A stretch of DNA of 64,000 bases, taken from sequence record PZ445498.1; one strand, 5' to 3'. The DNA comes from a phage. Positions 36,835-46,765 of this stretch are shown here, piece by piece (position 1 is the first letter of the stretch; each line of letters opens with the position of its first letter). Both the position numbers and the translations under genes were made by a program. The notes beneath the pieces are model-generated. The model saw only the letters and a program-made list of their open reading frames with translations, searched no databases and was not told the origin of the DNA.

Positions 36835-36863
36835 TTGCTTAATGTCGAAATTTTCTGTATAAT
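36835..36863 (+). promoter_or_regulatory. early promoter for HNH gene and first tRNAs
   Basis: TTGCTT-17-TATAAT plus TCATAAATTCGGAAGATTAGG leader. Confidence 0.7.
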
Positions 36864-36896
36864 ATATTCATAAATTCGGAAGATTAGGAACTATTT

Positions 36897-37406: not shown

Positions 37407-37495
37407 GGAAGAATAGCATAACGGTATTGCAGCAGATTGCTAATCTGTCGGTTTGAAACATAGCCTTGTGGGTTCGAATCCCACTTCTTCCTCCA
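37407..37495 (+). tRNA. tRNA-Ser (anticodon GCT)
   Basis: Acceptor GGAAGAA/TTCTTCC, anticodon arm GCAGA-TTGCTAA-TCTGT, long variable arm, T arm GGGTTCGAATCCC, CCA. Confidence 0.8.
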
Positions 37496-37500
37496 AATTT

Positions 37501-37578
37501 GGTTCTCAAGCTCATTTGGTATGAGCCGTCGCCTCATAAGCGAAAGGTAGGTAGGTTCGAATCCTCCGGGAGCCACCA
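37501..37578 (+). tRNA. tRNA with CAT anticodon (Met or Ile-lysidine type)
   Basis: Acceptor GGTTCTC/GGGAGCC, D stem GCTC/GAGC, anticodon loop CTCATAA, T loop TTCGAAT, CCA; one T-stem mismatch. Confidence 0.6.
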
Positions 37579-37595
37579 ATTAACTAGGAGACTAT

Positions 37596-37781
37596 ATGTC
37601 TAAGTTTCAAGAGCTTAAACAAGAACTAGAAGAGTGCATGTGTACTCACTGCCAAGGAACAGGTACTATTAATGATGCTGAACCTGGCGATATGCGTTTT
37701 GAAGAGTGGGAATGCGCAGCATGTAATGGTTCTGGTATTAATCCAGAATTTGGAATTTCTCTAGATATTGATCGAGGTTAA
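37596..37781 (+). CDS. hypothetical small Zn-ribbon protein
   Basis: 61 aa with CTHCQGTG and CAACNGSG Cys pairs. Confidence 0.5.
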   Translation: MSKFQELKQELEECMCTHCQGTGTINDAEPGDMRFEEWECAACNGSGINPEFGISLDIDRG

Positions 37782-37782
37782 C

Positions 37783-38115
37783 ATGGATATTTACACTACT
37801 CCAGCAGTAAATCTGATTGGCTCTTGCCTTGTGCATTTCCGCTTCTTCCAAACGGATGATAGCAAAGAGGAATATACTTATCCTCTGATGGATTTTCAGA
37901 TTGAGGATTTCTTTCGTGAAGTTCGTAATATTTCTGGAAACTTCTTCTATGGTATGGATAAGGAAGATTTTGACATTGAGTTCCCTATAATCTCTCGTTA
38001 TTTCCTAGAACAGTCTGACGCTCATTTTAGTAAGATTGAGCATATGGAAGTAGCATGGGCAATTCAGTTCGAGATTACTGGTTTTGCTCGATATATTCAG
38101 GGTTACGAACTCTAA
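37783..38115 (+). CDS. hypothetical protein
   Basis: Start ATG 37783 overlapping upstream stop. Confidence 0.45.
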   Translation: MDIYTTPAVNLIGSCLVHFRFFQTDDSKEEYTYPLMDFQIEDFFREVRNISGNFFYGMDKEDFDIEFPIISRYFLEQSDAHFSKIEHMEVAWAIQFEITGFARYIQGYEL

Positions 38116-38124
38116 AGATTACAT

Positions 38125-38201
38125 GGGGGTGTAATCGAATTGGCATAGGTACTGGACTTAAAATTCAGGTTTTGTGGGTTCGAATCCCACCACCCCTACC
38201 A
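38125..38201 (+). tRNA. tRNA, class-I length, anticodon TAA (Leu-type anticodon)
   Basis: Acceptor GGGGGTG/CACCCCT, anticodon arm CTGGA-CTTAAAA-TTCAG, T arm GTGGG-TTCGAAT-CCCAC, A73, CCA; imperfect D stem. Confidence 0.5.
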
Positions 38202-38216
38202 AATTAAGGAAATAAA

Positions 38217-38339
38217 ATGAAAGCTATTAAGAAAGCACTACGTAAATTTATGTACTGTCGTTTTCATAGCATCAAGACTTCAACTAATGGTACGACTTAT
38301 GATCGCTATGATCCTAAGTTTGGCTTACATTCTAAATAA
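38217..38339 (+). CDS. hypothetical small basic peptide
   Basis: 40 aa ORF with AAGGAAATAAA RBS right after the tRNA; speculative. Confidence 0.3.
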   Translation: MKAIKKALRKFMYCRFHSIKTSTNGTTYDRYDPKFGLHSK

Positions 38340-38352
38340 CTGGAGAAAACAA

Positions 38353-38559
38353 ATGGCTAATCCTGAAATTACGGCACAACGCTTTATGCTGAAAGGAATT
38401 ATTGCTGAAGCAGGCATGACAGAAGAAGTTACAGATTTTCAAAAGCAATTCCTCAATATTCTCACTCAAGCTAAAGAGCTAGGAGAGAAGGAACATGGCG
38501 CGGCTATTATGGCAATCACGTTGGTTGGGCTTGATCTGGCTGAAGAATCAGGAGTTTAA
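38353..38559 (+). CDS. hypothetical small protein
   Basis: ATG 38353 after GGAG RBS; track ORF 38287 is an in-frame upstream extension. Confidence 0.45.
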   Translation: MANPEITAQRFMLKGIIAEAGMTEEVTDFQKQFLNILTQAKELGEKEHGAAIMAITLVGLDLAEESGV

Positions 38560-38589
38560 CTCCTCCAAGCAGAAATTTTAAAAATGTAC

Positions 38590-38619
38590 TTGCTTTTTAC
38601 TTAAGATTTCTGTTATAAT
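38590..38619 (+). promoter_or_regulatory. early promoter
   Basis: TTGCTT-18-TATAAT plus TATAAATTGATGAAGGAG leader. Confidence 0.65.
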
Positions 38620-38649
38620 AGTTATATAAATTGATGAAGGAGTTAACGA

Positions 38650-38925
38650 ATGCAAAATCGTGTTATAACAACTGGTATTGAAAGTGCAATCTGTAAATCC
38701 TGGGAAGGCTGGGAAGGTGAGATTGAATGGCTTTATTTCTATGATGTAGAACTTCTGCCGGAAATTAAAGCTAAATGTGTTGAAGCTGGCATGGCTCCAG
38801 ATGCTACGGCTGATGTTGAGATTAGCATGAATAAGTTAGAGGGTCGGGTAATCACTGTTAGTGATGAGGGTGAAGAAGTTTTTGAACTTCCGTTCTCCTT
38901 AACTGTCACTCCTAAGTTCGACTAA
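38650..38925 (+). CDS. hypothetical protein
   Basis: 91 aa ORF after promoter 38590-38619. Confidence 0.5.
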   Translation: MQNRVITTGIESAICKSWEGWEGEIEWLYFYDVELLPEIKAKCVEAGMAPDATADVEISMNKLEGRVITVSDEGEEVFELPFSLTVTPKFD

Positions 38926-38961
38926 CTGATACAGCACTGAGCAAGTTCTTTAAAGTTTGAC

Positions 38962-38991
38962 TTGCTCAAGTGCCTTAAAACTTGATATAAT
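38962..38991 (+). promoter_or_regulatory. promoter for tRNA operon (Tyr-Glu-Trp-Phe)
   Basis: TTGCTC-18-TATAAT; ~120 nt leader then tRNA-Tyr. Confidence 0.6.
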
Positions 38992-39115
38992 ATTTATCTA
39001 ATTTGGAAACATATCTGAATGAGAAGTAATTAAGCGAGTTGCTTTTAGGGGTAAAGTCAGGAAATCCTGAAATATTCCACCTTGAGTTTAACCGACTTAC
39101 TTTTCATTCAAATAT

Positions 39116-39196
39116 GGGGGATTGGCTCAGTGGCGACGGCGCCTGGCTGTAGACCGGGTATATCACGCGGAGGTTCGAGTCCTCCATCCCCCACCA
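39116..39196 (+). tRNA. tRNA-Tyr (anticodon GTA)
   Basis: Acceptor GGGGGAT/ATCCCCC, anticodon arm CCTGG-CTGTAGA-CCGGG, 10 nt variable region, T arm GGAGG-TTCGAGT-CCTCC, CCA. Confidence 0.65.
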
Positions 39197-39204
39197 AATT
39201 TAAT

Positions 39205-39279
39205 GCACCTATCGTCTAATGGTTAGGACATCAGGATTTCAATCTGAGAATCGGAGTTCAATTCTCCGTGGGTGTGCCA
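39205..39279 (+). tRNA. tRNA-Glu (anticodon TTC)
   Basis: Acceptor GCACCTA/TGGGTGT, D stem GTCT/GGAC, anticodon arm TCAGG-ATTTCAA-TCTGA, T arm CGGAG-TTCAATT-CTCCG, CCA. Confidence 0.8.
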
Positions 39280-39288
39280 ATTAATAAT

Positions 39289-39359
39289 TGGGGTACGCAT
39301 AGGTTGCTAGTGGGCCTCCAAAACCCATGAAAAGGTTTCGAATACCTTTACCCCTGCCA
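39289..39359 (+). tRNA. tRNA-Trp (anticodon CCA), short form
   Basis: Anticodon loop CTCCAAA, T arm AAGGT-TTCGAAT-ACCTT, 3' end TACCCCT-G-CCA; 1-72 is U-U and D arm short. Confidence 0.55.
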
Positions 39360-39365
39360 ATATTT

Positions 39366-39440
39366 GCACCTTTAGCTGAGATGGATTAGCGCTTGCCTGA
39401 AGAGCTTGAGAGGTTCGTTCAATTCGAACAGGGTGCACCA
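39366..39440 (+). tRNA. tRNA-Phe (anticodon GAA)
   Basis: Acceptor GCACCTT/AGGGTGC, D stem GCTG/TAGC, anticodon loop CTGAAGA, T arm GTTCG-TTCAATT-CGAAC, CCA. Confidence 0.75.
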
Positions 39441-39457
39441 ATTTGAAGGAGATGCTG

Positions 39458-39730
39458 ATGCATCCTGAAAACTTCTTTATATACTGTACTAGTCTTTTGC
39501 TTAAACGCCGGATTAATAAAGTATATCACTACAGAGCTAGTCAACAGCCTTATGTTTATGATTCTAGTGGAGATCATATTCCACTTGAGCAACTAGGGAC
39601 TGATTATATGGTTTTGAAGCACTTTAATGAGGCGAATATCTCTAGCGTTCATAACCGACAAAACTCTAAAACGTGGTGGCATAAGAAGCGTAAGAAAGGC
39701 ATCAAATTTCTTAAAAATGTAGTTGCTTAA
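39458..39730 (+). CDS. hypothetical protein
   Basis: ATG 39458 after AAGGAG RBS. Confidence 0.45.
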   Translation: MHPENFFIYCTSLLLKRRINKVYHYRASQQPYVYDSSGDHIPLEQLGTDYMVLKHFNEANISSVHNRQNSKTWWHKKRKKGIKFLKNVVA

Positions 39731-39751
39731 ATCCTTAAAGTTCTGTATAAT
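39724..39751 (+). promoter_or_regulatory. early promoter
   Basis: TTGCTT-16-TATAAT plus CATAAATTGAACTGGAG leader; -35 overlaps upstream ORF end. Confidence 0.6.
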
Positions 39752-39779
39752 TATTACATAAATTGAACTGGAGAACTAG

Positions 39780-39968
39780 ATGAAAGCACCTAAACCGAAA
39801 TTAGTTAAGTTCGACTGCTGTGATACTGAAATCTTATTTACTAAGTTTGGTGAATTTAAGATGTGTGAATGTGGAACATGTGGTTACGATCATGGTGATG
39901 GATATTATTGCAGAACCCTAGGGCCTTCTGAACTAATCCACTTCTCATGGCCGGAAAGTAAAGAATAA
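39780..39968 (+). CDS. hypothetical small Zn-ribbon protein
   Basis: 62 aa with CC...CEC..C Cys cluster. Confidence 0.5.
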   Translation: MKAPKPKLVKFDCCDTEILFTKFGEFKMCECGTCGYDHGDGYYCRTLGPSELIHFSWPESKE

Positions 39969-39970
39969 TA

Positions 39971-40046
39971 CGACCGTTGGCTGAATGGCTTAGGCGGAGG
40001 CCTGCAAAACCTCCTTATGTGAGTTCGAATCTCATGCGGTCGTCCA
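39971..40046 (+). tRNA. tRNA-Cys (anticodon GCA)
   Basis: Acceptor CGACCGT/GCGGTCG, anticodon loop CTGCAAA, T arm GTGAG-TTCGAAT-CTCAT, U73 discriminator, CCA. Confidence 0.75.
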
Positions 40047-40053
40047 AATTTTA

Positions 40054-40136
40054 GGGTCGTTAGCCAAGCGGTTTGGCGGGGGACTGTTAATCCATGTCGA
40101 AAGACAACGTAGGTTCGAATCCTACACGGCCCGCCA
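40054..40136 (+). tRNA. tRNA with Asn-type anticodon arm (GTT) but 13 nt variable arm
   Basis: Acceptor GGGTCGT/ACGGCCC, D stem GCCA/TGGC, anticodon arm GGGGA-CTGTTAA-TCCAT, variable hairpin GTCGAAAGAC, T arm GTAGG-TTCGAAT-CCTAC, CCA. Confidence 0.6.
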
Positions 40137-40163
40137 ATTTCATTAACAACTGAGGAAATAGAT

Positions 40164-40349
40164 ATGACAACTCGTGCAATTGCTCGACTAGAAGCTGATC
40201 GTGATAATCTGATTAATAATATTAAGGTTCGTGATAATATTATTAAGGCTCTGAAAGCTGAACTTCTTGAAGAACTTCAAGGTCAAGTAGAGCGTCGTGA
40301 AGCTCTAAAAGAGGTTGAGGAAGCTATCGAAAAACTCAAGGCTGAATAA
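40164..40349 (+). CDS. hypothetical small coiled-coil protein
   Basis: 61 aa ORF. Confidence 0.45.
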   Translation: MTTRAIARLEADRDNLINNIKVRDNIIKALKAELLEELQGQVERREALKEVEEAIEKLKAE

Positions 40350-40352
40350 ATT

Positions 40353-40934
40353 ATGCACGGAATATCCTTACCCATTCCAGGGTTTGAGGAGTACTTAGTA
40401 AGTTTGGATGGGTTAGTATTTAGTATCAAATCAAACAAAATACTAACCCCAATAACCAGTAATTACGGATACTTATCTATACGTCTCCATAAAAATGGTC
40501 AACAGAGAAATACCGGTGTACATAGGATTTTAGCATGTGCATTTAAGAAATTACCAAGTCTAGACTCTGAACTAGAAGTTGACCATATTAACACAGACAT
40601 TACTTATTGGGGTCTTAATAACTTACAAGTGCTCACAAAAGAGCAGCATCTAGAAAAGACTTTAAAAGACAAAGGATTTAGTAAACTAAACCATGATAAT
40701 TGTTGTAAGGATTGTGGTAAAGCTATTTCTTTAAAAGCTGAAAAATGTCAGGAGTGCTCTTCATATAAACCAAAAGATATCTCTATAACTAAAGAAATAA
40801 TCGAGGTTACAGTAAGAGAGCTAGGCTGGTCAGGTGCAGGGAGAAAGTTAAGTTATTCAGATAATGGGTTGCGTAAAAGATACACTTCTTTAGGAGGCAA
40901 TCCTAAAGAACTTAAAAAGTTAAAGGTACTATAG
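40353..40934 (+). CDS. HNH homing endonuclease
   Basis: HNH core ELEVDHINTD and C-terminal Cys4 CCKDCGK...CQEC; stop codon lies in first bases of tRNA-Asp. Confidence 0.7.
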   Translation: MHGISLPIPGFEEYLVSLDGLVFSIKSNKILTPITSNYGYLSIRLHKNGQQRNTGVHRILACAFKKLPSLDSELEVDHINTDITYWGLNNLQVLTKEQHLEKTLKDKGFSKLNHDNCCKDCGKAISLKAEKCQECSSYKPKDISITKEIIEVTVRELGWSGAGRKLSYSDNGLRKRYTSLGGNPKELKKLKVL

Positions 40935-40999
40935 TCTAACGGTTAGGATACTCCCCTGTCACGGGAGAGGTAGGGTTTCGATTACCCTTAGTACCGCCA
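40925..40999 (+). tRNA. tRNA-Asp (anticodon GTC)
   Basis: Acceptor GGTACTA/TAGTACC, anticodon arm CTCCC-CTGTCAC-GGGAG, T arm AGGGT-TTCGATT-ACCCT, G73, CCA. Confidence 0.85.
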
Positions 41000-41005
41000 A
41001 ATTAT

Positions 41006-41081
41006 ACATCCATAGCTCAATTGGTTAGAGCTACCGCCTCTTAAGCGGTAGGTTCTAGGTTCAAGTCCTAGTGGGTGTACC
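41006..41081 (+). tRNA. tRNA-Lys (anticodon CTT)
   Basis: Acceptor ACATCCA/TGGGTGT, D stem GCTC/GAGC, anticodon arm ACCGC-CTCTTAA-GCGGT, T arm CTAGG-TTCAAGT-CCTAG, CCA. Confidence 0.8.
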
Positions 41082-41295
41082 AAACATCAGAGCAGCGTGA
41101 TGTACTGCAAAGACCCAAAGTCCGGGGTGGACTTCTTGATTCAAAGGAGCAGGCATTAATTATCATTCTAGCGTGGTGGAGAGGGGACACCAGCTTGCCG
41201 AGGGTAGAAGCTCGTTCGATTCGAGTGAAAGAATGGTTCTCGTAAATCCGCACAAGTGATAGTAGGTTCAAGTCCTACCTAGATTGACTCATTAT

Positions 41296-41369
41296 GCGTT
41301 CGTAGTTAAAAGGTATAATTTTTGGTTGCCAACCAGAAGTTGAGGGTTCGATTCCCTCCGACCGCACCA
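41296..41369 (+). tRNA. tRNA-Gly (anticodon GCC)
   Basis: Acceptor GCGTTCG/CGACCGC (one mismatch), D stem GTTA/TAAT, anticodon arm TTTGG-TTGCCAA-CCAGA, T arm GAGGG-TTCGATT-CCCTC, CCA. Confidence 0.7.
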
Positions 41370-41624
41370 AATCTTTGTAGGTCGCGTCACTTATAATGGG
41401 ACTACAGGGTAAACAAGGCGATGAGTTTCCGGCCGGTTCTAGTCGCTGAAAATCCTCCCGACCAGGTAGGTGTAGGTAAACGAAAGTTTACTTATTGAGT
41501 AGGTTCCGATAGATCGGCGAGTCTATTCTGGCATTTAAGAGAAGTCTCGCAAACTTCTTTGTCAGCCGTGGGGCTTGAACCCTCCAGGTGGCCTACGCAA
41601 TAAGTAAATTTATTAAAAATTCAT

Positions 41625-41653
41625 TTGCTATTTTGCTTAATTCTCTGTATAAT
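41625..41653 (+). promoter_or_regulatory. early promoter
   Basis: TTGCTA-17-TATAAT plus TTATAAAGTGTTGAGAAGGAAAG leader. Confidence 0.7.
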
Positions 41654-41685
41654 ATATCTTATAAAGTGTTGAGAAGGAAAGCAAA

Positions 41686-41883
41686 ATGAAAAAAGTTATG
41701 TTACTATCTGTATTCTTACTCACTGGTTGCTTTAAATTTGATTCAACCATTAACAAGGAGTATGAATTTGCAAAAAATTTCTGTGGTGGAGAGAGTAAAA
41801 TACAAAACTTCAGTATACACTCTACAATTCCTAGTACCATTTACTGCGTAGATGGACGGAATATTAATATTCCACCACAATAA
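41686..41883 (+). CDS. hypothetical lipoprotein
   Basis: Signal peptide with lipobox LLTGC. Confidence 0.5.
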   Translation: MKKVMLLSVFLLTGCFKFDSTINKEYEFAKNFCGGESKIQNFSIHSTIPSTIYCVDGRNINIPPQ

Positions 41884-41892
41884 AAGAATATT

Positions 41893-41969
41893 CTCCGATT
41901 AGCTCAATTGGCTAGAGTACACCGTTTGGGGCGGTGGGGTTGAAGGTTCGAGTCCTTCATTGGAGACCA
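41893..41969 (+). tRNA. tRNA-Pro (anticodon TGG)
   Basis: Acceptor CTCCGAT/ATTGGAG, anticodon arm CACCG-TTTGGGG-CGGTG, T arm GAAGG-TTCGAGT-CCTTC, CCA. Confidence 0.85.
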
Positions 41970-41975
41970 AACAAT

Positions 41976-42053
41976 TGCGGGTTAGATCTTTGGTAGAGAT
42001 CGCTAGTCTCATAAGCTAGAAAGAGGTAGGTTCGATTCCTACACCCGCTTCCA
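41976..42053 (+). tRNA. tRNA with CAT anticodon (Met or Ile-lysidine type)
   Basis: D stem GATC/GATC, anticodon arm CTAGT-CTCATAA-GCTAG, T arm GTAGG-TTCGATT-CCTAC, CCA; 1-72 is U-U. Confidence 0.7.
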
Positions 42054-42074
42054 ATTTAATAGAAGGATTTCGAA

Positions 42075-42239
42075 ATGAAATTATTTCGTTTAAAGGTAAG
42101 TGATCTACGATCTAGCAAAGATCGTAAGAAGTATCCACTAGCCCATTACGGTAAAGATAAAAACGAAGTGATGGCGGAATTAGGAATCAATCATCCTTAC
42201 TTGAAAGTCTACTCTATTAAGGAAGTCTATGCTAATTAA
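42075..42239 (+). CDS. hypothetical small basic protein
   Basis: 54 aa ORF with AAGGA RBS between tRNA and endonuclease gene; below track size cutoff. Confidence 0.4.
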   Translation: MKLFRLKVSDLRSSKDRKKYPLAHYGKDKNEVMAELGINHPYLKVYSIKEVYAN

Positions 42240-42702
42240 TAAAGTTTTAGCTGCCTTAAACCTTCCTGATAACTTCATTATAGATGATAAGCTCATAAGA
42301 GCTTATATGAGCAAATATAACGAAATTTCGGGTAAAGAAGGTAAGTTAAAAACTTCAGAGTTTAGATTCTGTTATCGAATGGCAGCCTTAAATCTCTTAA
42401 AGTATAAAAGGGAGCATAAAATACCTATAACGGAAGGTTTTGTATATGTAATTGGTAATCCAGCATGGCCAGGCATGTATAAAATAGGTATGACTATAGA
42501 TGTGAATGAGAGGTTAGCAAGTTATCAAACTTATTCACCTAATAGAGACTACAAGCTATACCATTTCAGATTTTCGTCGGATAAAAGACGTACAGAGAAA
42601 GAATTACATAATCTTCTTAAAGATTATAGAGTATCTGGAGAGTGGTTTGAAGTACCTGTACTAGATGCTTTTAAATTATTAGTAGAAAAATTGGATTGCT
42701 AG
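42229..42702 (+). CDS. T5orf172 / GIY-YIG-like domain protein, putative homing endonuclease
   Basis: Motif GFVYVIGN...YKIGMT...ERLASY characteristic of the T5orf172 family; stop codon lies in tRNA-Lys 5' end. Confidence 0.65.
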   Translation: MLINKVLAALNLPDNFIIDDKLIRAYMSKYNEISGKEGKLKTSEFRFCYRMAALNLLKYKREHKIPITEGFVYVIGNPAWPGMYKIGMTIDVNERLASYQTYSPNRDYKLYHFRFSSDKRRTEKELHNLLKDYRVSGEWFEVPVLDAFKLLVEKLDC

Positions 42703-42770
42703 CTCAACTGGATAAGAGTAGCGGACCTTTAATCCGTCAGTTCTGGGTTCGAATCCCAGGCAATCCACCA
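42693..42770 (+). tRNA. tRNA-Lys (anticodon TTT)
   Basis: Acceptor GGATTGC/GCAATCC, anticodon arm GCGGA-CCTTTAA-TCCGT, T arm CTGGG-TTCGAAT-CCCAG, CCA. Confidence 0.85.
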
Positions 42771-42774
42771 AATT

Positions 42775-42848
42775 GCTCGGTTAGTTTAATGGTAGAACCC
42801 CGTCTTTACACGGCGGTTGCGATAGTTCGATTCTATCACCGAGTACCA
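42775..42848 (+). tRNA. tRNA-Val (anticodon TAC)
   Basis: Acceptor GCTCGGT/ACCGAGT, anticodon arm CCGTC-TTTACAC-GGCGG, T arm GATAG-TTCGATT-CTATC, CCA. Confidence 0.8.
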
Positions 42849-42874
42849 ATTAACTCAAAATAAGGAATTGCAAA

Positions 42875-43228
42875 TGCAATTATCAAGCAAGGTTCAAGGC
42901 TATTTCGGTCATGTAACAATGGAGTTCGCTATCTCTTAAAGGTTGGGACTTCGAACAAGATCTAGCTGAATTCTACAAAGATATTGATCTGAACGTACCA
43001 TACATAGGACTCTCCACTGGTCAAGAGATTACAGAAGCCGATGTATTCAAGGCAAGTCAAGGTGAGGTAACACCTAGTTTTGCCGAGTTCTGGTTAGGTA
43101 TCACACTGAAAGAAGATGCACCGGATGGTGGTGTGGTTATGCAGAGTATGCACTCTGGAAGCTCTGATTACCTTTTCGTTAGCGACGTTAAGGAACTACA
43201 AGAAATCGCTAAAAATGTACTTGCTTGA
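42875..43228 (+). pseudogene. ORF interrupted by in-frame TAA (21 codons, stop at 42938-42940, then ~95 more codons)
   Basis: ATG 42875 with AAGGA RBS; in-frame TAA; downstream frame stays open to TGA 43226-43228 with no ATG near its start. Confidence 0.35.
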
Positions 43229-43239
43229 TGCTTAATTTC
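43211..43239 (+). promoter_or_regulatory. early promoter ahead of ORF-free leader and tRNA-Ala/Leu
   Basis: TTGCTT-17-TATAAT plus TATAAATTGATGTGAAAATAG leader. Confidence 0.7.
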
Positions 43240-43604
43240 TTGTTATAATATTTATATAAATTGATGTGAAAATAGCTGCCTAGATATCAGGTGTATGACG
43301 TCTACACTAGCAGAGCTACCGAAAAAGAGATCCTCAGGATAAACGCCGTAGCAAAATTAGTCTGATATCCATCAATTTAGTTCACTAAGGTATTAGCTCG
43401 ACCTAGGACTGGCTGCCAAAAAGCACAGTTGCAATTAGACCCCCTAATGGCGGGGGATGCTTTGCAATAAGTTCTAGATTAGTCCACTAGATTCAGCGGC
43501 TACTGAATAGTGTATTGGGTTTGCGAGATGACGCGGTTCCTTCCGCTCGAAGCGAAGGTGCTGTAGTTACGCCGAGCTAATAGCCTTAGTAAACTAAAGA
43601 ATTT

Positions 43605-43679
43605 GGGCGGTTAGTTTATCTGGGAAAATACCTGACTTGCACTCAGGAGTGAGGAGTTCGACTCTCCTACTGTCCACCA
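43605..43679 (+). tRNA. tRNA-Ala (anticodon TGC)
   Basis: Acceptor GGGCGGT/ACTGTCC with G3-U70 wobble, anticodon arm CCTGA-CTTGCAC-TCAGG, T arm AGGAG-TTCGACT-CTCCT, CCA. Confidence 0.85.
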
Positions 43680-43684
43680 AATTC

Positions 43685-43769
43685 GGGGCTATGCTGGAAC
43701 TGGTAGACAATACGGCCTTAGATTCCGTAGCTTAAATGCGTGGGAGTTCGAGTCTCCCTAGCCCCACCA
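43685..43769 (+). tRNA. tRNA-Leu (anticodon TAG)
   Basis: Acceptor GGGGCTA/TAGCCCC, anticodon loop CTTAGAT, long variable arm, T arm GGGAG-TTCGAGT-CTCCC, A73, CCA. Confidence 0.7.
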
Positions 43770-43785
43770 ACTTATAGGATAATGT

Positions 43786-44370
43786 ATGCAGTTTGTACCA
43801 ATAAAAGATGCACCAGGGTATTTAGTAAATGAAACAGGGGATGTGTTATCTACATTTACTAATAAAATTTTATCAAGATATATAGTTGATGGATACCCTG
43901 CTGTAAAATTACAGATAAATGGTAAGCAAACTTCGGTACTTATACACCGAATTATTTCCCATGTATTTGGGGACTTATATAATCTATTTGATCCTGAATT
44001 AGAAGTAGATCACAAGGATAGAGATAGGCTGAATCTATCTAAAGATAATCTTCAAGTTTTATCAAAAATAGAACATCAGAAGAAAACTAATAAAGATAAT
44101 GGATGGTCTGATAGTAGAGTACCTTGCCCCTTATGTGGAAATCTAATGCTTCAGAGATCAGTAACATGTACAAATTGTAAGCCAAAACCTACAGGAAAGT
44201 TAATAAAACCAGAATTGTCCTTAGAAGACATAACTGAAAAGGTTTTATTAATGGGGTGGGTTAAGGCAGCTAAAGATCTAGAAGTATCAGAGTCCACTTT
44301 ACGTAGACGATATACTAAACTAACCGGATTAAGCCCAAAAGTATTAACAGAACAACGGAAAAGCAAATAG
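43786..44370 (+). CDS. HNH homing endonuclease
   Basis: Paralog of 40353-40934 (ELEVDHKDRDRLN, Cys4 cluster); 3' end overlaps tRNA-Ser. Confidence 0.7.
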   Translation: MQFVPIKDAPGYLVNETGDVLSTFTNKILSRYIVDGYPAVKLQINGKQTSVLIHRIISHVFGDLYNLFDPELEVDHKDRDRLNLSKDNLQVLSKIEHQKKTNKDNGWSDSRVPCPLCGNLMLQRSVTCTNCKPKPTGKLIKPELSLEDITEKVLLMGWVKAAKDLEVSESTLRRRYTKLTGLSPKVLTEQRKSK

Positions 44371-44450
44371 ACTGGTGACTAAACCCGATTGGAAATCGGT
44401 TGAGGGGTAGCAATACCGCCTTATGGGTTCAACTCCCATCTTTTCCGCCA
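44357..44450 (+). tRNA. tRNA-Ser (anticodon GGA)
   Basis: Acceptor GGAAAAG/CTTTTCC, anticodon arm CCGA-TTGGAAA-TCGG, long variable arm, T arm ATGGG-TTCAACT-CCCAT, G73, CCA; overlaps HNH stop. Confidence 0.7.
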
Positions 44451-44462
44451 AACAATTTATAT

Positions 44463-44557
44463 GGTAGGTCAATCCAATGGCTGGCGCTGGACTCCGACTT
44501 GAAATCGGTTGATCGTAGTGATACGGTGTAAGGGTTCGATCCCCTTACCTACCTCCA
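44463..44557 (+). tRNA. tRNA-Ser (anticodon TGA)
   Basis: Acceptor GGTAGGT/ACCTACC, anticodon arm CCGA-CTTGAAA-TCGG, long variable arm, T arm AAGGG-TTCGATC-CCCTT, CCA. Confidence 0.7.
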
Positions 44558-44938
44558 AATCTTGAAGTATGCCGGAATCGGTAGACGGGGCTTCCTAAAG
44601 GGCGTAAGGGGAACATCCACTCCTCATAAGATACCCGAAAATGAGGCTGAGATAAATGGTCTATCTCATGAAGGTTCAAGTCCTTCTGCTTCTTGATACA
44701 TTAATGGCTCAAAGTGTAACGGTGCTATTTGATGTTCTTAGTAAGACTTTCCCGACATGCGTTCGGGAGTAAGCTGCTAAGGCTAGAGTAGAAGAGTTTC
44801 GGAGAGCCGCCACAATTGAGTATTATTAGAGAGCATTCGCAAGAAAGAATCAGGAGAAAAACCTGTGCGCAGAATGACTAACTTTGGTACCTTAGACGGC
44901 CAAATGGAGGACTGATCATCCCCTAATAGTATTCAATT

Positions 44939-45015
44939 GTGGCTATATCATAATTGGTTAATGATCCTGATTGTGAATCAGGCCTATGTGGATTCGAATT
45001 CTACTAGCCACCCCC
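44939..45015 (+). tRNA. tRNA-His (anticodon GTG)
   Basis: Acceptor GTGGCTA/TAGCCAC, D stem TCAT/ATGA, anticodon arm CCTGA-TTGTGAA-TCAGG, T arm GTGGA-TTCGAAT-TCTAC, C73; 3' tail reads CCCA. Confidence 0.8.
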
Positions 45016-45022
45016 AAATATA

Positions 45023-45097
45023 GCGTCCTTATTTCAACGGAAAGAATGTAAAGCTACGAACTTTACGATCGGGGTTCGATTCCCTGAGGATGCACCA
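45023..45097 (+). tRNA. tRNA-Arg (anticodon ACG)
   Basis: Acceptor GCGTCCT/AGGATGC, anticodon arm TAAAG-CTACGAA-CTTTA, T arm CGGGG-TTCGATT-CCCTG, A73, CCA. Confidence 0.8.
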
Positions 45098-45121
45098 ATT
45101 AACTTAAACAGGAAATAAAAT

Positions 45122-45322
45122 ATGGCTGATTTCTGCAAAGAATGCTCTATTGATATGTGGGGAAGAGATACTGGTGATCTTTCTGGTCTGATTACAGAAG
45201 CCGAAGTTAAAGAAGGCTATGGTGCTGTTGTAATCTGTGAAGGTTGTGGCATTATCCGTGTTGATCATAATGGTAAACGTCTAGAAGAACCTGATCCAAT
45301 CGCCACGGTTCCTGTAGAATAA
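45122..45322 (+). CDS. hypothetical small Zn-binding protein
   Basis: 66 aa with CKEC and CEGC Cys pairs. Confidence 0.5.
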   Translation: MADFCKECSIDMWGRDTGDLSGLITEAEVKEGYGAVVICEGCGIIRVDHNGKRLEEPDPIATVPVE

Positions 45323-45330
45323 AAAATTAT

Positions 45331-45406
45331 TGGAGTGTAGCTCAACTGGCAGAGCGACGGTTTCTGACACCGTAGGTTTCTAGTTCGATCCTAGACATTC
45401 CAGCCA
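45331..45406 (+). tRNA. tRNA-Gln (anticodon CTG)
   Basis: Acceptor TGGAGTG/CATTCCA (U1-A72), D stem GCTC/GAGC, anticodon arm ACGGT-TTCTGAC-ACCGT, T arm TCTAG-TTCGATC-CTAGA, G73, CCA. Confidence 0.85.
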
Positions 45407-45412
45407 AACAAT

Positions 45413-45490
45413 TGGGGATTAGCTTAGCTTGGCCTAAAGCTTCGGCCTTTGAAGTCGAGATCATTGGTTCAAATCCAATATCCCCTGCCA
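45413..45490 (+). tRNA. tRNA-Gln (anticodon TTG)
   Basis: Anticodon arm TCGGC-CTTTGAA-GTCGA, T arm ATTGG-TTCAAAT-CCAAT, CCA; 1-72 is U-U and D loop is long. Confidence 0.7.
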
Positions 45491-45498
45491 AACAATAA

Positions 45499-45574
45499 GC
45501 GGTTAAGCACACGGGTTGTGCCGCAGGCCTTCCAAGCCCCGCTGAGTAGGGTTCGATTCCCTCTAGCCGCTCCA
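45499..45574 (+). tRNA. tRNA-Gly (anticodon TCC)
   Basis: Acceptor GCGGTTA/TAGCCGC, anticodon loop CTTCCAA on a weak stem, T loop TTCGATT, U73, CCA. Confidence 0.6.
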
Positions 45575-45591
45575 ACTTTAAGGAAACATTT

Positions 45592-45813
45592 ATGCACGTT
45601 TTTGAGTTTCGTGATAAAAGTAACAATAAACGAGTTATTGTTATTGGAGAAACATACCTAGCATACGAACAAACTGACGGCTCTGTTATCTTGAATGATG
45701 AGAAAGCAAATTTTAGCTTTTATCCAGAAGAACCTTATGAAGAGTTTCGTACTAAGTTTCTTTTACCAGACTGGCTAGCAGTAGCCGAGCAACTAGAATC
45801 CGAAGATGGCTGA
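45592..45813 (+). CDS. hypothetical protein
   Basis: 73 aa ORF right after tRNA-Gly. Confidence 0.5.
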   Translation: MHVFEFRDKSNNKRVIVIGETYLAYEQTDGSVILNDEKANFSFYPEEPYEEFRTKFLLPDWLAVAEQLESEDG

Positions 45814-45970
45814 TAACCTGAGACTAAAGGTTGACAAACAAAAGAAACGTGTAGAGATTGAGCTTGGTGACGAACGCCTAGCACTATCCTTCGAGTTTCT
45901 TCAGCAGTTGGCGATGACAGTAATGTCTGATAAGTCTCCTGTATTTGAAAAAGAAATCCCGTTGAAATGA
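45806..45970 (+). CDS. hypothetical small protein
   Basis: 54 aa ORF with ATGGCTGA start-stop overlap; below track cutoff. Confidence 0.35.
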   Translation: MADNLRLKVDKQKKRVEIELGDERLALSFEFLQQLAMTVMSDKSPVFEKEIPLK

Positions 45971-45980
45971 CGGGTTTATT

Positions 45981-46055
45981 GCTCCTAAAGCATTGCTGGC
46001 GATGCAGTTGCCTTGTAAGCATCTGAACTGGGTTCGACTCCTGGTGGGAGCACCA
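45981..46055 (+). tRNA. tRNA-Thr (anticodon TGT)
   Basis: Acceptor GCTCCTA/TGGGAGC, D stem GCAT/ATGC, anticodon loop CTTGTAA, T arm CTGGG-TTCGACT-CCTGG, CCA. Confidence 0.8.
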
Positions 46056-46070
46056 AATTTAAAAATTCAT

Positions 46071-46099
46071 TTGCCTTCTCTCTTATTTCTTGTTATAAT
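46071..46099 (+). promoter_or_regulatory. early promoter
   Basis: TTGCCT-17-TATAAT plus TATAAATTAATGAGAGGGAAACC leader. Confidence 0.7.
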
Positions 46100-46129
46100 A
46101 TTTATATAAATTAATGAGAGGGAAACCAA

Positions 46130-46423
46130 ATGAAACGTTATCTTTCTGTCGTGTTCCAAACTGGTGGTCAACGCTACACTTATGAATTTCCTGAGTCCTG
46201 GAAAATTAAAGAAGGTGATCAAGTTGTTGTATTAACACCTCGTGAAGGCTTCAAAGTAGTAACGGTTAAACAAGTCTTTCCAAAAGATCACGAACCATCT
46301 AAGTCTATTCAGTACAAGATGATTCACGGTCTGGTACGAAAAGTACCTAGAACAGAAGTCGAAGTAGATAAAACTGGGGAAGCTAAATACCAGTATACTT
46401 CTTACTTGGATGAAATGATGTAA
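46130..46423 (+). CDS. hypothetical protein
   Basis: 97 aa ORF after promoter 46071-46099; stop abuts tRNA-Ile. Confidence 0.55.
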   Translation: MKRYLSVVFQTGGQRYTYEFPESWKIKEGDQVVVLTPREGFKVVTVKQVFPKDHEPSKSIQYKMIHGLVRKVPRTEVEVDKTGEAKYQYTSYLDEMM

Positions 46424-46424
46424 T

Positions 46425-46500
46425 GCTCTGATAGTTCAACAGGTTAGAACAGGCGACCGATAATCGTCAAATCTTGGTTCGATCCCAAGTCGGAGTACCA
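46425..46500 (+). tRNA. tRNA-Ile (anticodon GAT)
   Basis: Acceptor GCTCTGA/TCGGAGT, D stem GTTC/GAAC, anticodon arm GGCGA-CCGATAA-TCGTC, T arm CTTGG-TTCGATC-CCAAG, CCA. Confidence 0.75.
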
Positions 46501-46506
46501 AATTAT

Positions 46507-46582
46507 AGTTAGTTGGCAGAGTGGTTATGCACCTCCTTCATACGGAGCGACTACAGTGGTTCAACTCCACTACTAACTACCA
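46507..46582 (+). tRNA. tRNA with CAT anticodon (Met or Ile-lysidine type)
   Basis: Acceptor AGTTAGT/ACTAACT, anticodon arm CTCC-TTCATAC-GGAG, T arm AGTGG-TTCAACT-CCACT, CCA. Confidence 0.7.
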
Positions 46583-46765
46583 AAGATAAGATCAGGCCTT
46601 TGTGCCAGATCTCTGTGTTTATTAAACTGAATGGGACTATCAATCCACAAGCCGGACTACGAGCGATTATCGGGTATTCACTTAATAAACAGCCTGCCTC
46701 CCAGTTTTTATCTTGCTTCTGGGTTAACAAAAAGCTGAGCCAAATTCTAACATCAGGGAGATCTA

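What the first reader, a model, noticed from the sequence alone, without database searches (positions are those of the whole stretch)
37407..46582. 9 kb tRNA cluster (28 tRNAs) interleaved with homing-endonuclease genes that overlap tRNA ends
Twenty-eight tRNA-like genes covering most amino acids, including three CAT-anticodon tRNAs, three Ser, two Lys, two Gly and two Gln, are packed between small ORFs. Two HNH genes and a T5orf172-type gene have their stop codons inside the first nucleotides of a tRNA (40932-40934 in tRNA-Asp, 42700-42702 in tRNA-Lys, 44368-44370 in tRNA-Ser). This overlap implies coupled processing of mRNA and tRNA and is the arrangement expected if the endonucleases are mobile and target tRNA-gene junctions.
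Basis: partly seen in the sequence, partly recalled or inferred. Interest (0 to 1): 0.5.

Follow-up and report, generated by a model that had tools for sequence, protein, structure and literature searches.

The report
T5-type tRNA cluster with homing endonucleases
This is the well-known transfer-RNA gene block of a T5-like bacteriophage, where four selfish nuclease genes sit directly in front of tRNA genes and three of them run a few bases into the tRNA; this is ordinary for the phage family, although relatives show that each nuclease travels with its own version of the tRNA behind it.

Summary
ARAGORN tRNAs in 37407-46582. Three more are sub-threshold: Trp and Gly-UCC (96-97% identical to annotated T5 tRNAs) and Ser-UGA.

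The three stop codons lie where stated: tRNA-Asp positions 8-10, tRNA-Lys 8-10 and tRNA-Ser 12-14. A fourth HNH gene (36897-37406), just outside the interval, ends one base before tRNA-Ser(GCU).

The window is a T5-like phage (Demerecviridae, Epseptimavirus-like). The T5 RefSeq record already annotates the same overlaps, and HEG4 is 96% identical to T5 hegC (F-TflI). A 2008 paper on T4 SegB already proposed that tRNA 5' processing removes the endonuclease stop codon, and said the same of the T5 enzymes.

Across 29 genomes the tRNA order is fixed but endonuclease occupancy varies. Fourteen of 14 tRNA-adjacent endonuclease lineages end at or inside the tRNA, against 6 of 22 other ORF families (p=1.3e-5). 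Each lineage keeps to one junction and is tied to a divergent allele of the downstream tRNA. Chimeric tRNA scars and endonuclease-free copies of the linked alleles also occur.

Cleavage sites and RNA processing were not tested. I found no publication describing the endonuclease-plus-tRNA-allele cassette.

The parts
36897..37406 (+). HEG1: free-standing HNH endonuclease gene (169 aa, HNH_3 + AP2). Its TAA stop ends 1 nt before tRNA-Ser(GCU).
   Evidence: annotated as an F-TflVI homologue in YZU-L1; 35% identical to T5 hegF; its 3' end joined to this tRNA is found in 58 of the 262 records that carry this tRNA-Ser allele
37407..37495 (+). tRNA-Ser(GCU)
   Evidence: 60.8 bits
37501..37578 (+). tRNA with CAU anticodon, Ile2 (lysidine) type
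   Evidence: 86% identical to T5 tRNA-Ile2(CAU)
38125..38201 (+). tRNA-Leu(UAA)
39116..39196 (+). tRNA-Tyr(GUA)
39205..39279 (+). tRNA-Glu(UUC). This is the allele that carries a T5orf172 endonuclease gene upstream in L012 and L013; there is none here.
39289..39359 (+). tRNA-Trp(CCA), 71 nt with a reduced D arm; below default thresholds
   Evidence: relaxed ARAGORN; 96% identical to the annotated T5 tRNA-Trp
39366..39440 (+). tRNA-Phe(GAA)
39971..40046 (+). tRNA-Cys(GCA)
40054..40136 (+). tRNA-Asn(GUU), the allele without an endonuclease gene
40353..40934 (+). HEG2: free-standing HNH endonuclease gene (193 aa, NUMOD4 + HNH_3). Its TAG stop is tRNA-Asp positions 8-10.
   Evidence: 37% identical to HEG4 and 43% to T5 hegD; gene body in 56 phage records; Asn-Asp spacing 788/864 nt when occupied against 222/297 nt when empty
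40925..40999 (+). tRNA-Asp(GUC), the HEG2-linked allele. It shares only the anticodon arm with the resident allele.
   Evidence: (63.1 bits); 58 of 75 records with this allele also carry the HEG2 3' end
41006..41082 (+). tRNA-Lys(CUU)
41164..41288 (+). homologue of T5 'rna2' (tRNA-like stable RNA). This explains the weak Ala-like ARAGORN call at 41162-41234.
   Evidence: 88% identity
41296..41369 (+). tRNA-Gly(GCC)
41499..41599 (+). homologue of T5 stable RNA 'rnaIV'
   Evidence: 93% identity
41893..41969 (+). tRNA-Pro(UGG)
41976..42053 (+). initiator tRNA-fMet(CAU)
   Evidence: 97% identical to T5 tRNA-fMet
42229..42702 (+). HEG3: free-standing T5orf172/GIY-YIG-type endonuclease gene (157 aa). 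Its start overlaps the upstream 54-aa ORF by 11 nt, and its TAG stop is tRNA-Lys(UUU) positions 8-10.
   Evidence: 47% identical to T5.069; Pro-Lys spacing 722/723 nt when occupied against 272/273 nt when empty; gene body in 67 records
42693..42770 (+). tRNA-Lys(UUU), the HEG3-linked allele. It has C instead of U at position 33.
   Evidence: (59.9 bits); 87 of 88 records with this allele carry the HEG3 3' end
42775..42848 (+). tRNA-Val(UAC)
43391..43585 (+). homologue of T5 stable RNA 'rna2H'
   Evidence: 84% identity
43605..43679 (+). tRNA-Ala(UGC)
43685..43769 (+). tRNA-Leu(UAG). This allele is shared by every HEG4-carrying genome in the sample.
43786..44370 (+). HEG4: free-standing HNH endonuclease gene (194 aa), orthologue of T5 hegC (T5.064, named 'H-N-H endonuclease TflI' in AY543070). 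Its TAG stop is tRNA-Ser(GGA) positions 12-14.
   Evidence: 96% aa identity to T5.064; N-terminal half matches I-HmuI 1U3E at E=2.9e-5; gene body in 27 records; naming
44357..44450 (+). tRNA-Ser(GGA), the HEG4-linked allele
   Evidence: the same 14-nt overlap is annotated in T5
44463..44557 (+). tRNA-Ser(UGA), its own variant; below default thresholds
   Evidence: relaxed ARAGORN; 37.6 bits on the Rfam Sec model
44561..44812 (+). homologues of T5 stable RNAs 'rna1' (44561-44705) and 'rnaI' (44706-44812)
   Evidence: 80% and 91% identity
44939..45014 (+). tRNA-His(GUG)
45023..45097 (+). tRNA-Arg(ACG)
45331..45406 (+). tRNA-Gln(CUG)
45413..45490 (+). tRNA-Gln(UUG)
45499..45574 (+). tRNA-Gly(UCC); below default thresholds
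   Evidence: relaxed ARAGORN; 97% identical to T5 tRNA-Gly1(UCC), which the T5 record notes can be converted into an effective amber suppressor
45981..46055 (+). tRNA-Thr(UGU)
46425..46500 (+). tRNA-Ile(GAU); also has C at position 33
46507..46582 (+). elongator tRNA-Met(CAU)
   Evidence: 99% identical to T5 tRNA-Met

Best explanation
This is the tRNA gene region of a T5-like phage (Demerecviridae, Markadamsvirinae). It holds 28 tRNA genes, T5-type small stable RNAs and short ORFs, all on one strand.

Four free-standing homing endonuclease genes have colonised it. Three are I-HmuI/F-Tfl-type HNH genes and one is a T5orf172 (GIY-YIG-type) gene. Each sits immediately upstream of a tRNA gene and ends at or inside its 5' end.

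Shown here: the endonuclease genes are dispensable and patchy among relatives; each lineage is faithful to one tRNA junction; and each comes with a distinct allele of the downstream tRNA.

Inferred mechanism: in a mixed infection the nuclease nicks or cuts a genome that lacks it, in or near the resident tRNA allele. Recombinational repair from the carrier genome then copies the endonuclease gene together with its linked allele, presumed to resist cleavage, and the resident isoacceptor gene is replaced.

Also inferred, and already proposed in the literature: the endonuclease ORF is transcribed together with the tRNA, so RNase P cleavage at tRNA +1 removes its last codons and its stop codon. Full-length nuclease could then be made only from unprocessed transcript, which keeps this potentially toxic enzyme scarce.
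For: Identity: megablast finds 568 T5-like records. The best are Epseptimavirus genomes at 93-96% identity with the same annotated layout. T5 RefSeq annotates hegC overlapping tRNA-Ser2(GGA) by 14 nt, hegD overlapping tRNA-Gln2 by 23 nt and T5.069 overlapping tRNA-Asn by 24 nt. HEG4 is 96% identical to hegC.

Nuclease families: Pfam HNH_3, NUMOD4, AP2 and T5orf172/MUG113; I-HmuI match.

Mobility: presence/absence at 12 junctions against a fixed tRNA order, clean indels, and low frequency among relatives. bux carries a split HEG1 and a shortened HEG3.

Geometry: 14/14 tRNA-adjacent endonuclease lineages from four families (two of them clearly unrelated nuclease folds) end at gap <=0, against 6/22 other ORF families (p=1.3e-5).

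Site fidelity: 87-100% aa identity within a junction against 23-57% between junctions. tRNA-Glu is the exception: it hosts two divergent lineages, 40-42% identical, each with its own tRNA-Glu allele.

Linkage (T5 counted once): every endonuclease copy has its own tRNA allele, and none of those alleles occurs without the endonuclease in the 29-genome sample. The counts are Asp 7/7, Lys-UUU 11/11, Ser-GGA 4/4 and Asn 8/8, and this holds across both genera. In the large collection the figures are Lys 87/88 and Asp 58/75.

Recombination scars: phagemcphageface has a chimeric tRNA-Asp with the crossover in the shared anticodon arm; PS3-1 has the linked Asp allele with the endonuclease gene deleted; Elw has a hybrid tRNA-Lys.

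Mosaic block: the stretch Leu-UAG + HEG4 + Ser-GGA is 92-100% identical to T5, against 30-88% in the flanks.

Literature: T4 SegB cuts inside tRNA genes and drives inheritance of the T4 tRNA region, and loss of the stop codon through tRNA processing was proposed for segB and for T5 F-TflI/II (PMC2330249). F-TflII is described as a site-specific nicking enzyme (PMC6105707).
Against: No cleavage site, RNA end or protein level was measured here or found in the papers I could read; Akulenko 2004 is not held.

Linkage is looser for some cassettes in the large collection. Only 25 of 46 records with the linked Ser-GGA allele carry the HEG4 3' end, and only 58 of 262 with this Ser-GCU allele carry the HEG1 3' end. 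An allele may therefore predate its endonuclease.

Co-inheritance of an endonuclease gene with its flank is expected from any homing with co-conversion. It does not by itself show that the tRNA holds the target.

Six non-endonuclease small ORF families also overlap tRNA 5' ends, so overlap is not exclusive to endonucleases.

The promoter scan was uninformative (26 sites against 27.4 expected), so co-transcription rests on T5's annotated promoters and the tight spacing.
Confidence: 0.75

Rival explanations
1. The overlap is a neutral by-product of extreme gene packing. Everything in this region is squeezed against tRNA genes, and an ORF that reads into a tRNA soon meets a stop codon, often the conserved U8-A9-G10 = UAG. 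On this view the overlap has no regulatory or homing meaning.
For: Non-endonuclease ORFs end only 0-21 nt from tRNA starts, and six small ORF families overlap them by 6-22 nt. In the window, 39780-39968, 46130-46423 and others end 1-10 nt before a tRNA. Two of the three stops are the tRNA's own TAG at positions 8-10.
Against: The geometry holds for 14/14 tRNA-adjacent endonuclease lineages against 6/22 other families (p=1.3e-5). It recurs in clearly unrelated nuclease folds (HNH and T5orf172) at 12 junctions. The overlapping small ORFs are not endonuclease remnants.
Confidence: 0.2
2. The endonuclease is a passenger. The divergent tRNA alleles are the selected units, for example as variants that resist host tRNA-cleaving defence nucleases, and they spread by ordinary recombination. 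The endonuclease genes hitchhike next to them.
For: T5 tRNA-Lys(UUU), Thr and Asn variants neutralise the PARIS AriB tRNase, and resistance maps to positions 39 and 41 (PMC12409363). The Lys(UUU) alleles differ at exactly these positions and at position 33. Linked alleles also occur without the endonuclease: Ser-GGA in 21 of 46 records, plus PS3-1 and Elw. By covariance score the linked alleles are good tRNAs: Asp 63.1 against 46.8-49.0 bits.
Against: This does not explain why the neighbour is always a nuclease gene, always on the 5' side and always reading into the tRNA. It also does not explain why each endonuclease lineage stays at one junction. The two ideas are compatible rather than exclusive.
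Confidence: 0.15
3. The four ORFs are fixed, domesticated phage genes, such as nicking enzymes used in replication or host takeover, and not mobile elements.
For: T5 DNA carries site-specific nicks (T5 record). F-Tfl enzymes are described as nicking enzymes. HEG2 copies are more than 97% identical wherever they occur.
Against: Each is absent from about 85-95% of T5-like genomes. Close relatives have empty sites or decayed copies (bux), and one has the gene cleanly deleted (PS3-1).
Confidence: 0.03

Closest known systems
Phage T5 tRNA-region endonucleases: hegC (T5.064, 'F-TflI' in AY543070), hegD (T5.061), T5.069, and the F-Tfl enzymes of Akulenko et al. 2004
   Same: Same phage family, same tRNA order and same gene families. 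HEG4 is the 96%-identical orthologue of hegC with the identical 14-nt overlap into tRNA-Ser(GGA). T5 also has hegD reading into tRNA-Gln(CUG) and a T5orf172 gene reading into tRNA-Asn.
   Different: This phage carries a different set. HEG2 at tRNA-Asp, HEG3 at tRNA-Lys(UUU) and HEG1 at tRNA-Ser(GCU) are absent from T5, while T5's Asn and Gln(CUG) copies are absent here.
Phage T4/T6 SegB (GIY-YIG homing endonuclease in the T4 tRNA cluster)
   Same: It is a free-standing endonuclease gene inside a phage tRNA cluster, directly upstream of a tRNA. tRNA 5' processing separates its stop codon from the ORF, it cuts within tRNA genes of phages that lack it, and it drives inheritance of itself plus neighbouring tRNA genes (PMC2330249; PMC13096335).
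   Different: The phage family and the proteins differ: Seg-type GIY-YIG against HNH_3 and T5orf172 here. SegB is a single gene with relaxed specificity for the T-arm of many tRNAs. Here there are many lineages, each faithful to one junction and each with a private tRNA allele. Cleavage was not tested here.
T5orf172 and HNH endonuclease genes at recombination boundaries in ICP1 and other phages (Barth, Dunham and Seed 2023)
   Same: Same T5orf172 family. That paper notes its abundance in T5-like phages and the general rule that nuclease genes mark borders of exchanged segments (PMC10448857). The 43465-44440 block shared with T5 fits this rule.
   Different: In the passages I searched, the paper does not describe tRNA junctions or tRNA-allele linkage in T5-like phages.
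I-HmuI (SPO1 intron-encoded HNH nicking endonuclease, PDB 1U3E)
   Same: The N-terminal DNA-binding region and HNH region of HEG4 align with it at E=2.9e-5 over residues 5-97. It belongs to the same Pfam family, HNH_3.
   Different: I-HmuI is encoded within an intron. The genes here are free-standing between genes.
tRNA punctuation of animal mitochondrial transcripts (analogy only)
   Same: tRNAs flanking ORFs define mRNA ends by RNase P/Z cleavage, and cleavage affects the stop codon.
   Different: In mitochondria, cleavage plus polyadenylation completes a stop codon. Here cleavage would remove it. There is no homology.

Membership tests
Free-standing homing endonuclease gene | Encodes a nuclease domain of a recognised homing-endonuclease family | tested here: met
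   HEG1: HNH_3 34.3 bits (cutoff 24.8) plus a sub-threshold AP2 match (25.5 bits, cutoff 33.3). HEG4: HNH_3 26.0 bits. HEG3: T5orf172 55.9 and MUG113 67.8 bits. HEG2: NUMOD4 24.2 bits (cutoff 23.4), HNH_3 only 18.5 bits (below cutoff) but 37% identical to HEG4.
Free-standing homing endonuclease gene | Lies between genes, not inside an intron or intein | tested here: met
   All four ORFs lie between tRNA genes or small ORFs. The flanking tRNAs are intact.
Free-standing homing endonuclease gene | Sporadic presence/absence at the same locus in close relatives | tested here: met
   Occupancy matrix of 29 genomes, clean indels, and 27-67 of about 568 records per gene.
Free-standing homing endonuclease gene | Site-specific cleavage of the allele that lacks the gene, with the carrier's own allele resistant | not testable with these tools
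   Indirect evidence only: each lineage is tied to a divergent tRNA allele, and chimeric tRNA scars exist.
Free-standing homing endonuclease gene | Super-Mendelian inheritance in mixed infection | not testable with these tools
   Requires phage crosses.
T5 F-Tfl / I-HmuI-like HNH endonucleases | Orthology to a characterised T5 enzyme | tested here: met
   HEG4 is 96% identical over 194 aa to T5.064 hegC, named 'H-N-H endonuclease TflI' in AY543070. HEG2 is a paralogue only (43% to hegD), and HEG1 is 35% identical to hegF (F-TflVI).
T5 F-Tfl / I-HmuI-like HNH endonucleases | Single-strand nicking at an asymmetric site | not testable with these tools
   Reported for F-TflII in the literature as cited in PMC6105707. 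The primary paper is not held.
GIY-YIG superfamily (T5orf172 branch) | T5orf172/MUG113 domain with GIY...YIG-like motifs | tested here: met
   Pfam hits for HEG3. The sequence reads GFVY-x10-YKIG followed by conserved Arg and Glu residues. A homologue is annotated 'GIY-YIG nuclease family protein' in JLBYU43. No relative with a solved structure was found.
tRNA genes | Cloverleaf accepted by a covariance model or a structure-based predictor | tested here: met
   25 by ARAGORN at default settings and 24 by the Rfam gathering score. Three more are accepted only at relaxed settings or by homology to T5 tRNAs. One candidate (41162-41234) was rejected as T5 rna2.
SegB-type regulation by tRNA processing | The endonuclease stop codon lies at or beyond the RNase P cleavage site of the downstream tRNA | tested here: met
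   The stops lie at tRNA positions 8-10, 8-10 and 12-14. The HEG1 stop ends at position -1.
SegB-type regulation by tRNA processing | Co-transcription, and cleavage that lowers endonuclease expression | not testable with these tools
   No RNA data. The promoter scan was uninformative.

The most novel reading that the evidence does not exclude
The mobile unit in T5-like tRNA regions is not the endonuclease gene alone. It is a welded cassette: the endonuclease ORF plus a private allele of the tRNA it reads into, presumed to resist cleavage.

Clearly unrelated nuclease folds (HNH and T5orf172) have each radiated into six or more junction-specific lineages with this same geometry. The overlap leaves no room for recombination between the nuclease gene and its protective allele, and it also gives expression control through RNase P.

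By replacing resident isoacceptor genes, these cassettes would drive turnover of the phage's tRNA alleles. That includes tRNA-Lys(UUU) and tRNA-Asn, which are known to decide sensitivity to tRNA-cleaving defences such as PARIS. Selfish nucleases would then be reshuffling an anti-defence arsenal.
Probability: 0.4. Interest if true: 0.55.

Novelty: already known. Interest (0 to 1): 0.3.

Why it matters
As filed, the finding re-describes a textbook feature of T5-like phages, so on its own it changes nothing.

Its value is as a clean natural data set. Hundreds of sequenced relatives share one tRNA order but differ in which tRNA junctions carry an endonuclease gene and which tRNA allele follows it. 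That makes two old proposals directly testable:
- that free-standing endonucleases in tRNA clusters use tRNA genes as their homing targets;
- that tRNA 5' processing throttles their expression by removing the stop codon.

Phage tRNA alleles are now known to decide the outcome against tRNA-cleaving defence systems (PARIS, retron Eco7/Septu, PrrC). Endonuclease-driven allele replacement could therefore affect host range and the design of therapeutic phages.

Tried and rejected
- The sigma-70 promoter and terminator scan of 36400-47200 gave 26 promoter-like sites against 27.4 expected. It therefore says nothing about transcription units.
- The idea that endonuclease-linked tRNAs are degenerate 'dummy' tRNAs was prompted by T5 record notes: Ser2(GGA) cannot be converted into an amber suppressor and Gln2(CUG) is flagged as a pseudogene. 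Covariance scores show no consistent deficit, so I dropped it. Scores for linked against resident alleles: Asp 63.1 against 46.8-49.0; Lys 59.9 against 54.3 and 69.2; Asn 55.4 against 50.7 and 59.0; only Gln(CUG) is lower, at 39.1 against 56.7-60.0.
- The idea that small non-endonuclease ORFs overlapping tRNAs are endonuclease remnants found no support. They have no significant similarity to the endonuclease families.
- The idea that allele linkage merely reflects clade structure is rejected. Carriers and non-carriers, each with the matching allele, occur in both the Epseptimavirus-like and Tequintavirus-like genomes.
- A recent transfer of the HEG3 cassette between genera is not supported. 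HEG3 is only about 80% identical between them, while the tRNA is about 100% identical. HEG4 does sit in a block 92-100% identical to T5.
- Searches of solved structures found nothing for HEG3 or HEG1.
- The primary paper on F-TflI, II and IV (PMID 15456135) is not in the library, so the published cleavage sites could not be checked.
- The weak Ala-like call at 41162-41234 is not a tRNA. It is T5 rna2.

Full report
WHAT IS THERE

ARAGORN at default settings finds 25 tRNA genes on the + strand between 37407 and 46582, and one more (Arg-tct) at 33373. Rfam's tRNA model at its gathering score accepts 24 of the 25, at 39.7-69.6 bits. The 25th, Ser-GGA with its long variable arm, scores 46.1 bits on the related Sec model.

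With relaxed ARAGORN settings four more candidates appear. Three have good acceptor and T arms and an encoded CCA end:
- Trp(CCA) at 39289-39359 is 96% identical to the annotated T5 tRNA-Trp.
- Gly(UCC) at 45499-45574 is 97% identical to T5 tRNA-Gly1, which the T5 record notes can be converted into an effective amber suppressor.
- Ser(UGA) at 44463-44557 is a variant of its own.

The fourth candidate (41162-41234) is not a tRNA. It is the homologue of T5 'rna2', a tRNA-like stable RNA.

The three CAU-anticodon genes correspond to T5's Ile2(CAU), initiator fMet and elongator Met, at 86%, 97% and 99% identity.

THE ENDONUCLEASE GENES AND THE OVERLAPS

- ORF 40353-40934 (193 aa, NUMOD4 + HNH_3)
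- ORF 42229-42702 (157 aa, T5orf172/MUG113)
- ORF 43786-44370 (194 aa, HNH_3)

For tRNA-Asp and tRNA-Lys(UUU) the stop is the tRNA's own T8-A9-G10. For tRNA-Ser(GGA) it is positions 12-14.

It ends with TAA at 37406, directly abutting tRNA-Ser(GCU) at 37407.

The N-terminal half of HEG4 aligns with the nicking homing endonuclease I-HmuI, PDB 1U3E.

WHERE IT COMES FROM, AND WHAT IS ALREADY KNOWN

The 10-kb region matches 568 phage records, all T5-like. The best are Epseptimavirus genomes at 93-96% identity, and their annotations show the same layout.

The T5 reference record itself annotates three such overlaps:
- hegC overlapping tRNA-Ser2(GGA) by 14 nt
- hegD overlapping tRNA-Gln2(CUG) by 23 nt
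- T5.069 overlapping tRNA-Asn by 24 nt

HEG4 is 96% identical to hegC, which the AY543070 record names 'H-N-H endonuclease TflI'.

Three papers cover the surrounding ideas:
- The T4 SegB paper shows that a free-standing endonuclease in a phage tRNA cluster cuts inside tRNA genes and drives inheritance of that region. It explicitly proposes that tRNA maturation cuts between the last codon and the stop codon of segB to limit expression, and says the same was proposed for T5 F-TflI/II (PMC2330249).
- The BF23 genome paper attributes most differences among T5-like genomes to F-Tfl-type endonuclease genes (PMC10644984).
- Barth et al. note that T5orf172 genes are abundant in T5-like phages and that nuclease genes mark the boundaries of genetic exchange (PMC10448857).

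COMPARATIVE TEST OF MOBILITY

I collected 29 distinct related tRNA regions. They comprise six annotated relatives, T5, IMG/VR loci found with the conserved 97-aa ORF 46130-46420, and the window itself.

The tRNA order is the same throughout, but endonuclease genes occupy different junctions in different genomes. Empty and occupied sites differ by clean indels:
- Asn-Asp spacing is 222/297 nt when empty and 788/864 nt when occupied.
- Pro-Lys spacing is 272/273 nt when empty and 722/723 nt when occupied.

In the full phage collection the HEG2, HEG4 and HEG3 gene bodies occur in only 56, 27 and 67 records. The HEG1 3' end joined to tRNA-Ser occurs in 58. In bux, HEG1 is split and HEG3 is shortened.

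The genes are not invariant.

THE GEOMETRY IS SPECIFIC TO ENDONUCLEASES

I clustered all + strand ORFs in these regions. The results were:
- T5orf172 family: upstream of Lys-UUU (-10 nt), Asn (-24), Glu (-15, two lineages), Leu-UAG (-15) and Pro (0).
- HNH family of HEG2 and HEG4: upstream of Asp (-10), Ser-GGA (-14), Gln-CUG (-23), Lys-CUU (-15), Leu-UAG (-6) and Thr (-1).
- HEG1 family: at Ser-GCU (0).
- A small HNH family: one copy at Ala (-10).

Thus 14 of 14 tRNA-adjacent endonuclease lineages end at or inside the tRNA. Among the other ORF families that lie next to a tRNA, only 6 of 22 do so (Fisher p=1.3e-5).

The exceptions are the hegA type, which starts just after a tRNA, and three copies of the small HNH family that are not next to any tRNA.

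Identity is 87-100% within a junction and 23-57% between junctions, apart from tRNA-Glu, which hosts two divergent lineages. Each junction therefore has its own old lineage. This is what site-specific homing predicts, and promiscuous insertion does not.

THE ENDONUCLEASE GENE TRAVELS WITH A PRIVATE tRNA ALLELE

This is the one result I did not find in the papers I could search. In the 29 genomes, every endonuclease copy is followed by a distinct allele of the tRNA, and genomes without it carry other alleles (T5 counted once):
- Asp: 7 of 7 copies
- Lys-UUU: 11 of 11
- Ser-GGA: 4 of 4
- Asn: 8 of 8

The two tRNA-Asp alleles share only the anticodon arm. The pattern crosses the two genera, so it is not clade structure.

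In the large collection the linkage is 87/88 for Lys and 58/75 for Asp. It is looser for Ser-GGA (25/46) and Ser-GCU (58/262).

The counts of endonuclease gene bodies (56, 27 and 67) reveal no substantial class of copies lacking the linked allele: they are close to or below the counts of full junctions (58, 25 and 87). HEG4 exceeds its junction count by two records, which I did not inspect.

The exceptions are informative:
- PS3-1 has the linked Asp allele with the endonuclease gene deleted, apparently between short TAAA repeats.
- phagemcphageface has a chimeric tRNA-Asp: the resident 5' half joined to the linked 3' half, with the crossover in the shared anticodon arm. Its acceptor stem is mismatched and the record does not annotate it as a tRNA.
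- Elw has a tRNA-Lys with the resident acceptor stem and the linked body, and no endonuclease gene.

At the left edge of HEG2, homology with empty sites ends at ATTATGC. The start codon of the endonuclease gene therefore overlaps what would be the first two bases of the resident tRNA-Asp.

Around HEG4, a block from about 43465 to 44440 (Leu-UAG, HEG4, Ser-GGA) is 92-100% identical to T5. The flanks are 30-88% identical.

HOW IT MOST LIKELY WORKS

Shown: these are dispensable, junction-specific endonuclease genes, each physically fused to a particular tRNA allele.

Inferred: in mixed infections the nuclease nicks or cuts genomes that lack it, in or near the resident tRNA allele. Repair then copies the endonuclease gene plus its linked allele. 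Later loss of the gene leaves endonuclease-free copies of the linked allele, and aborted or partial conversions leave chimeric tRNAs.

Also inferred, following PMC2330249: RNase P cleavage at tRNA +1 would leave the HEG2 mRNA ending two bases after its TTA codon, without the last three codons or the stop. Only unprocessed transcripts could then give full-length protein, and processed ones would be non-stop messages.

I also infer that the overlap removes any space for recombination between the nuclease gene and its protective allele.

None of these steps could be tested here.

RIVALS

Neutral packing explains why overlaps are possible, but not the contrast of 14/14 against 6/22, nor the convergence of clearly unrelated nuclease folds.

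Hitchhiking on selected tRNA alleles is compatible with the data and may add to the picture. T5 tRNA-Lys(UUU), Thr and Asn variants neutralise the PARIS tRNase, and positions 39 and 41 of tRNA-Lys matter (PMC12409363). The Lys alleles here differ at those positions and at position 33.

Domesticated, fixed genes are excluded by the patchy distribution.

VERDICT

The object is the ordinary tRNA region of a T5-like phage, so novelty is 'already known' and interest is low to moderate. The endonuclease-plus-tRNA-allele cassette pattern is the part that may deserve a follow-up.

Noticed in passing
window 42868-43225 (insertion at about 42936): A conserved gene that is intact in relatives (bux_116, bas28_0122; 117 aa) is frameshifted here by a single extra T (CTCTTAAAGG against CTCTAAAGG). 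This leaves about 750 nt with no ORF of 40 aa or more. It is either a real pseudogene or a sequencing error.
   Followed up: yes
window 42693-42770 and 46425-46500: The HEG3-linked tRNA-Lys(UUU) and the tRNA-Ile(GAU) have C rather than the near-universal U at position 33. Across the related loci, 690 of 716 tRNA calls have U33. The 24 C33 cases are almost entirely these two species: 11 Lys, all of them HEG3-linked, and 12 Ile. The functional meaning is unknown; resistance to an anticodon nuclease is one possibility.
   Followed up: partly
window 41164-41288, 41499-41599, 43391-43585, 44561-44705, 44706-44812: Homologues (80-93% identical) of the T5 stable small RNAs rna2, rnaIV, rna2H, rna1 and rnaI, which the T5 record lists as of unknown function. 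They sit between the tRNA genes.
   Followed up: partly
L037:1175-1252 (Salmonella phage phagemcphageface): A chimeric tRNA-Asp gene: the 5' half comes from the common allele and the 3' half from the HEG2-linked allele, joined in the identical anticodon arm. The acceptor stem is mismatched and the record does not annotate it as a tRNA. This phage appears to have lost tRNA-Asp through a recombination scar.
   Followed up: partly
L036:1205-1279 (phage PS3-1) and L038:1200-1277 (phage vB_EcoD-Elw): These are endonuclease-free copies of the endonuclease-linked alleles. PS3-1 keeps the linked tRNA-Asp, with HEG2 apparently deleted between short TAAA repeats and a duplicated end of the upstream ORF. 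Elw has a tRNA-Lys(UUU) with the resident acceptor stem and the linked body.
   Followed up: partly
tRNA-Lys(UUU) alleles: window 42693-42770, L035:6354-6431, L009:5678-5756: Positions 36-41 read UAAUCC (HEG3-linked), UAAACC (T5) and UAAUCG (common resident). E. coli has UAAUCA, which is cut by PARIS AriB between positions 40 and 41. Positions 39 and 41 decide AriB sensitivity according to PMC12409363. Allele replacement could therefore change sensitivity to this defence.
   Followed up: no
window 33373-33447: A solitary tRNA-Arg(UCU) lies about 4 kb upstream of the cluster. It corresponds in position to the separate tRNA-Arg of T5.
   Followed up: no
window 46766-47134: The ORF just downstream of the cluster has a glycine-radical domain (PF01228, E=5e-16). 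Relatives annotate it variously as 'glycyl radical cofactor' or 'pyruvate formate-lyase', so it is a GrcA-like spare part.
   Followed up: no
L009:9511-9933 (IMG/VR contig of 114275 nt): One relative carries a bacterial-type globin ORF (PF01152, E=7e-7) inserted between tRNA-Thr and tRNA-Ile. It is absent from the window and from the other relatives examined.
   Followed up: no
T5 record NC_005859 (L007), notes on the tRNA features: In T5, the HEG-linked tRNA-Ser2(GGA) cannot be converted into an amber suppressor, whereas Ser1 and Ser3 can, and the HEG-linked tRNA-Gln2(CUG) is flagged as a pseudogene. Covariance scores did not show that linked alleles are weaker in general.
   Followed up: partly
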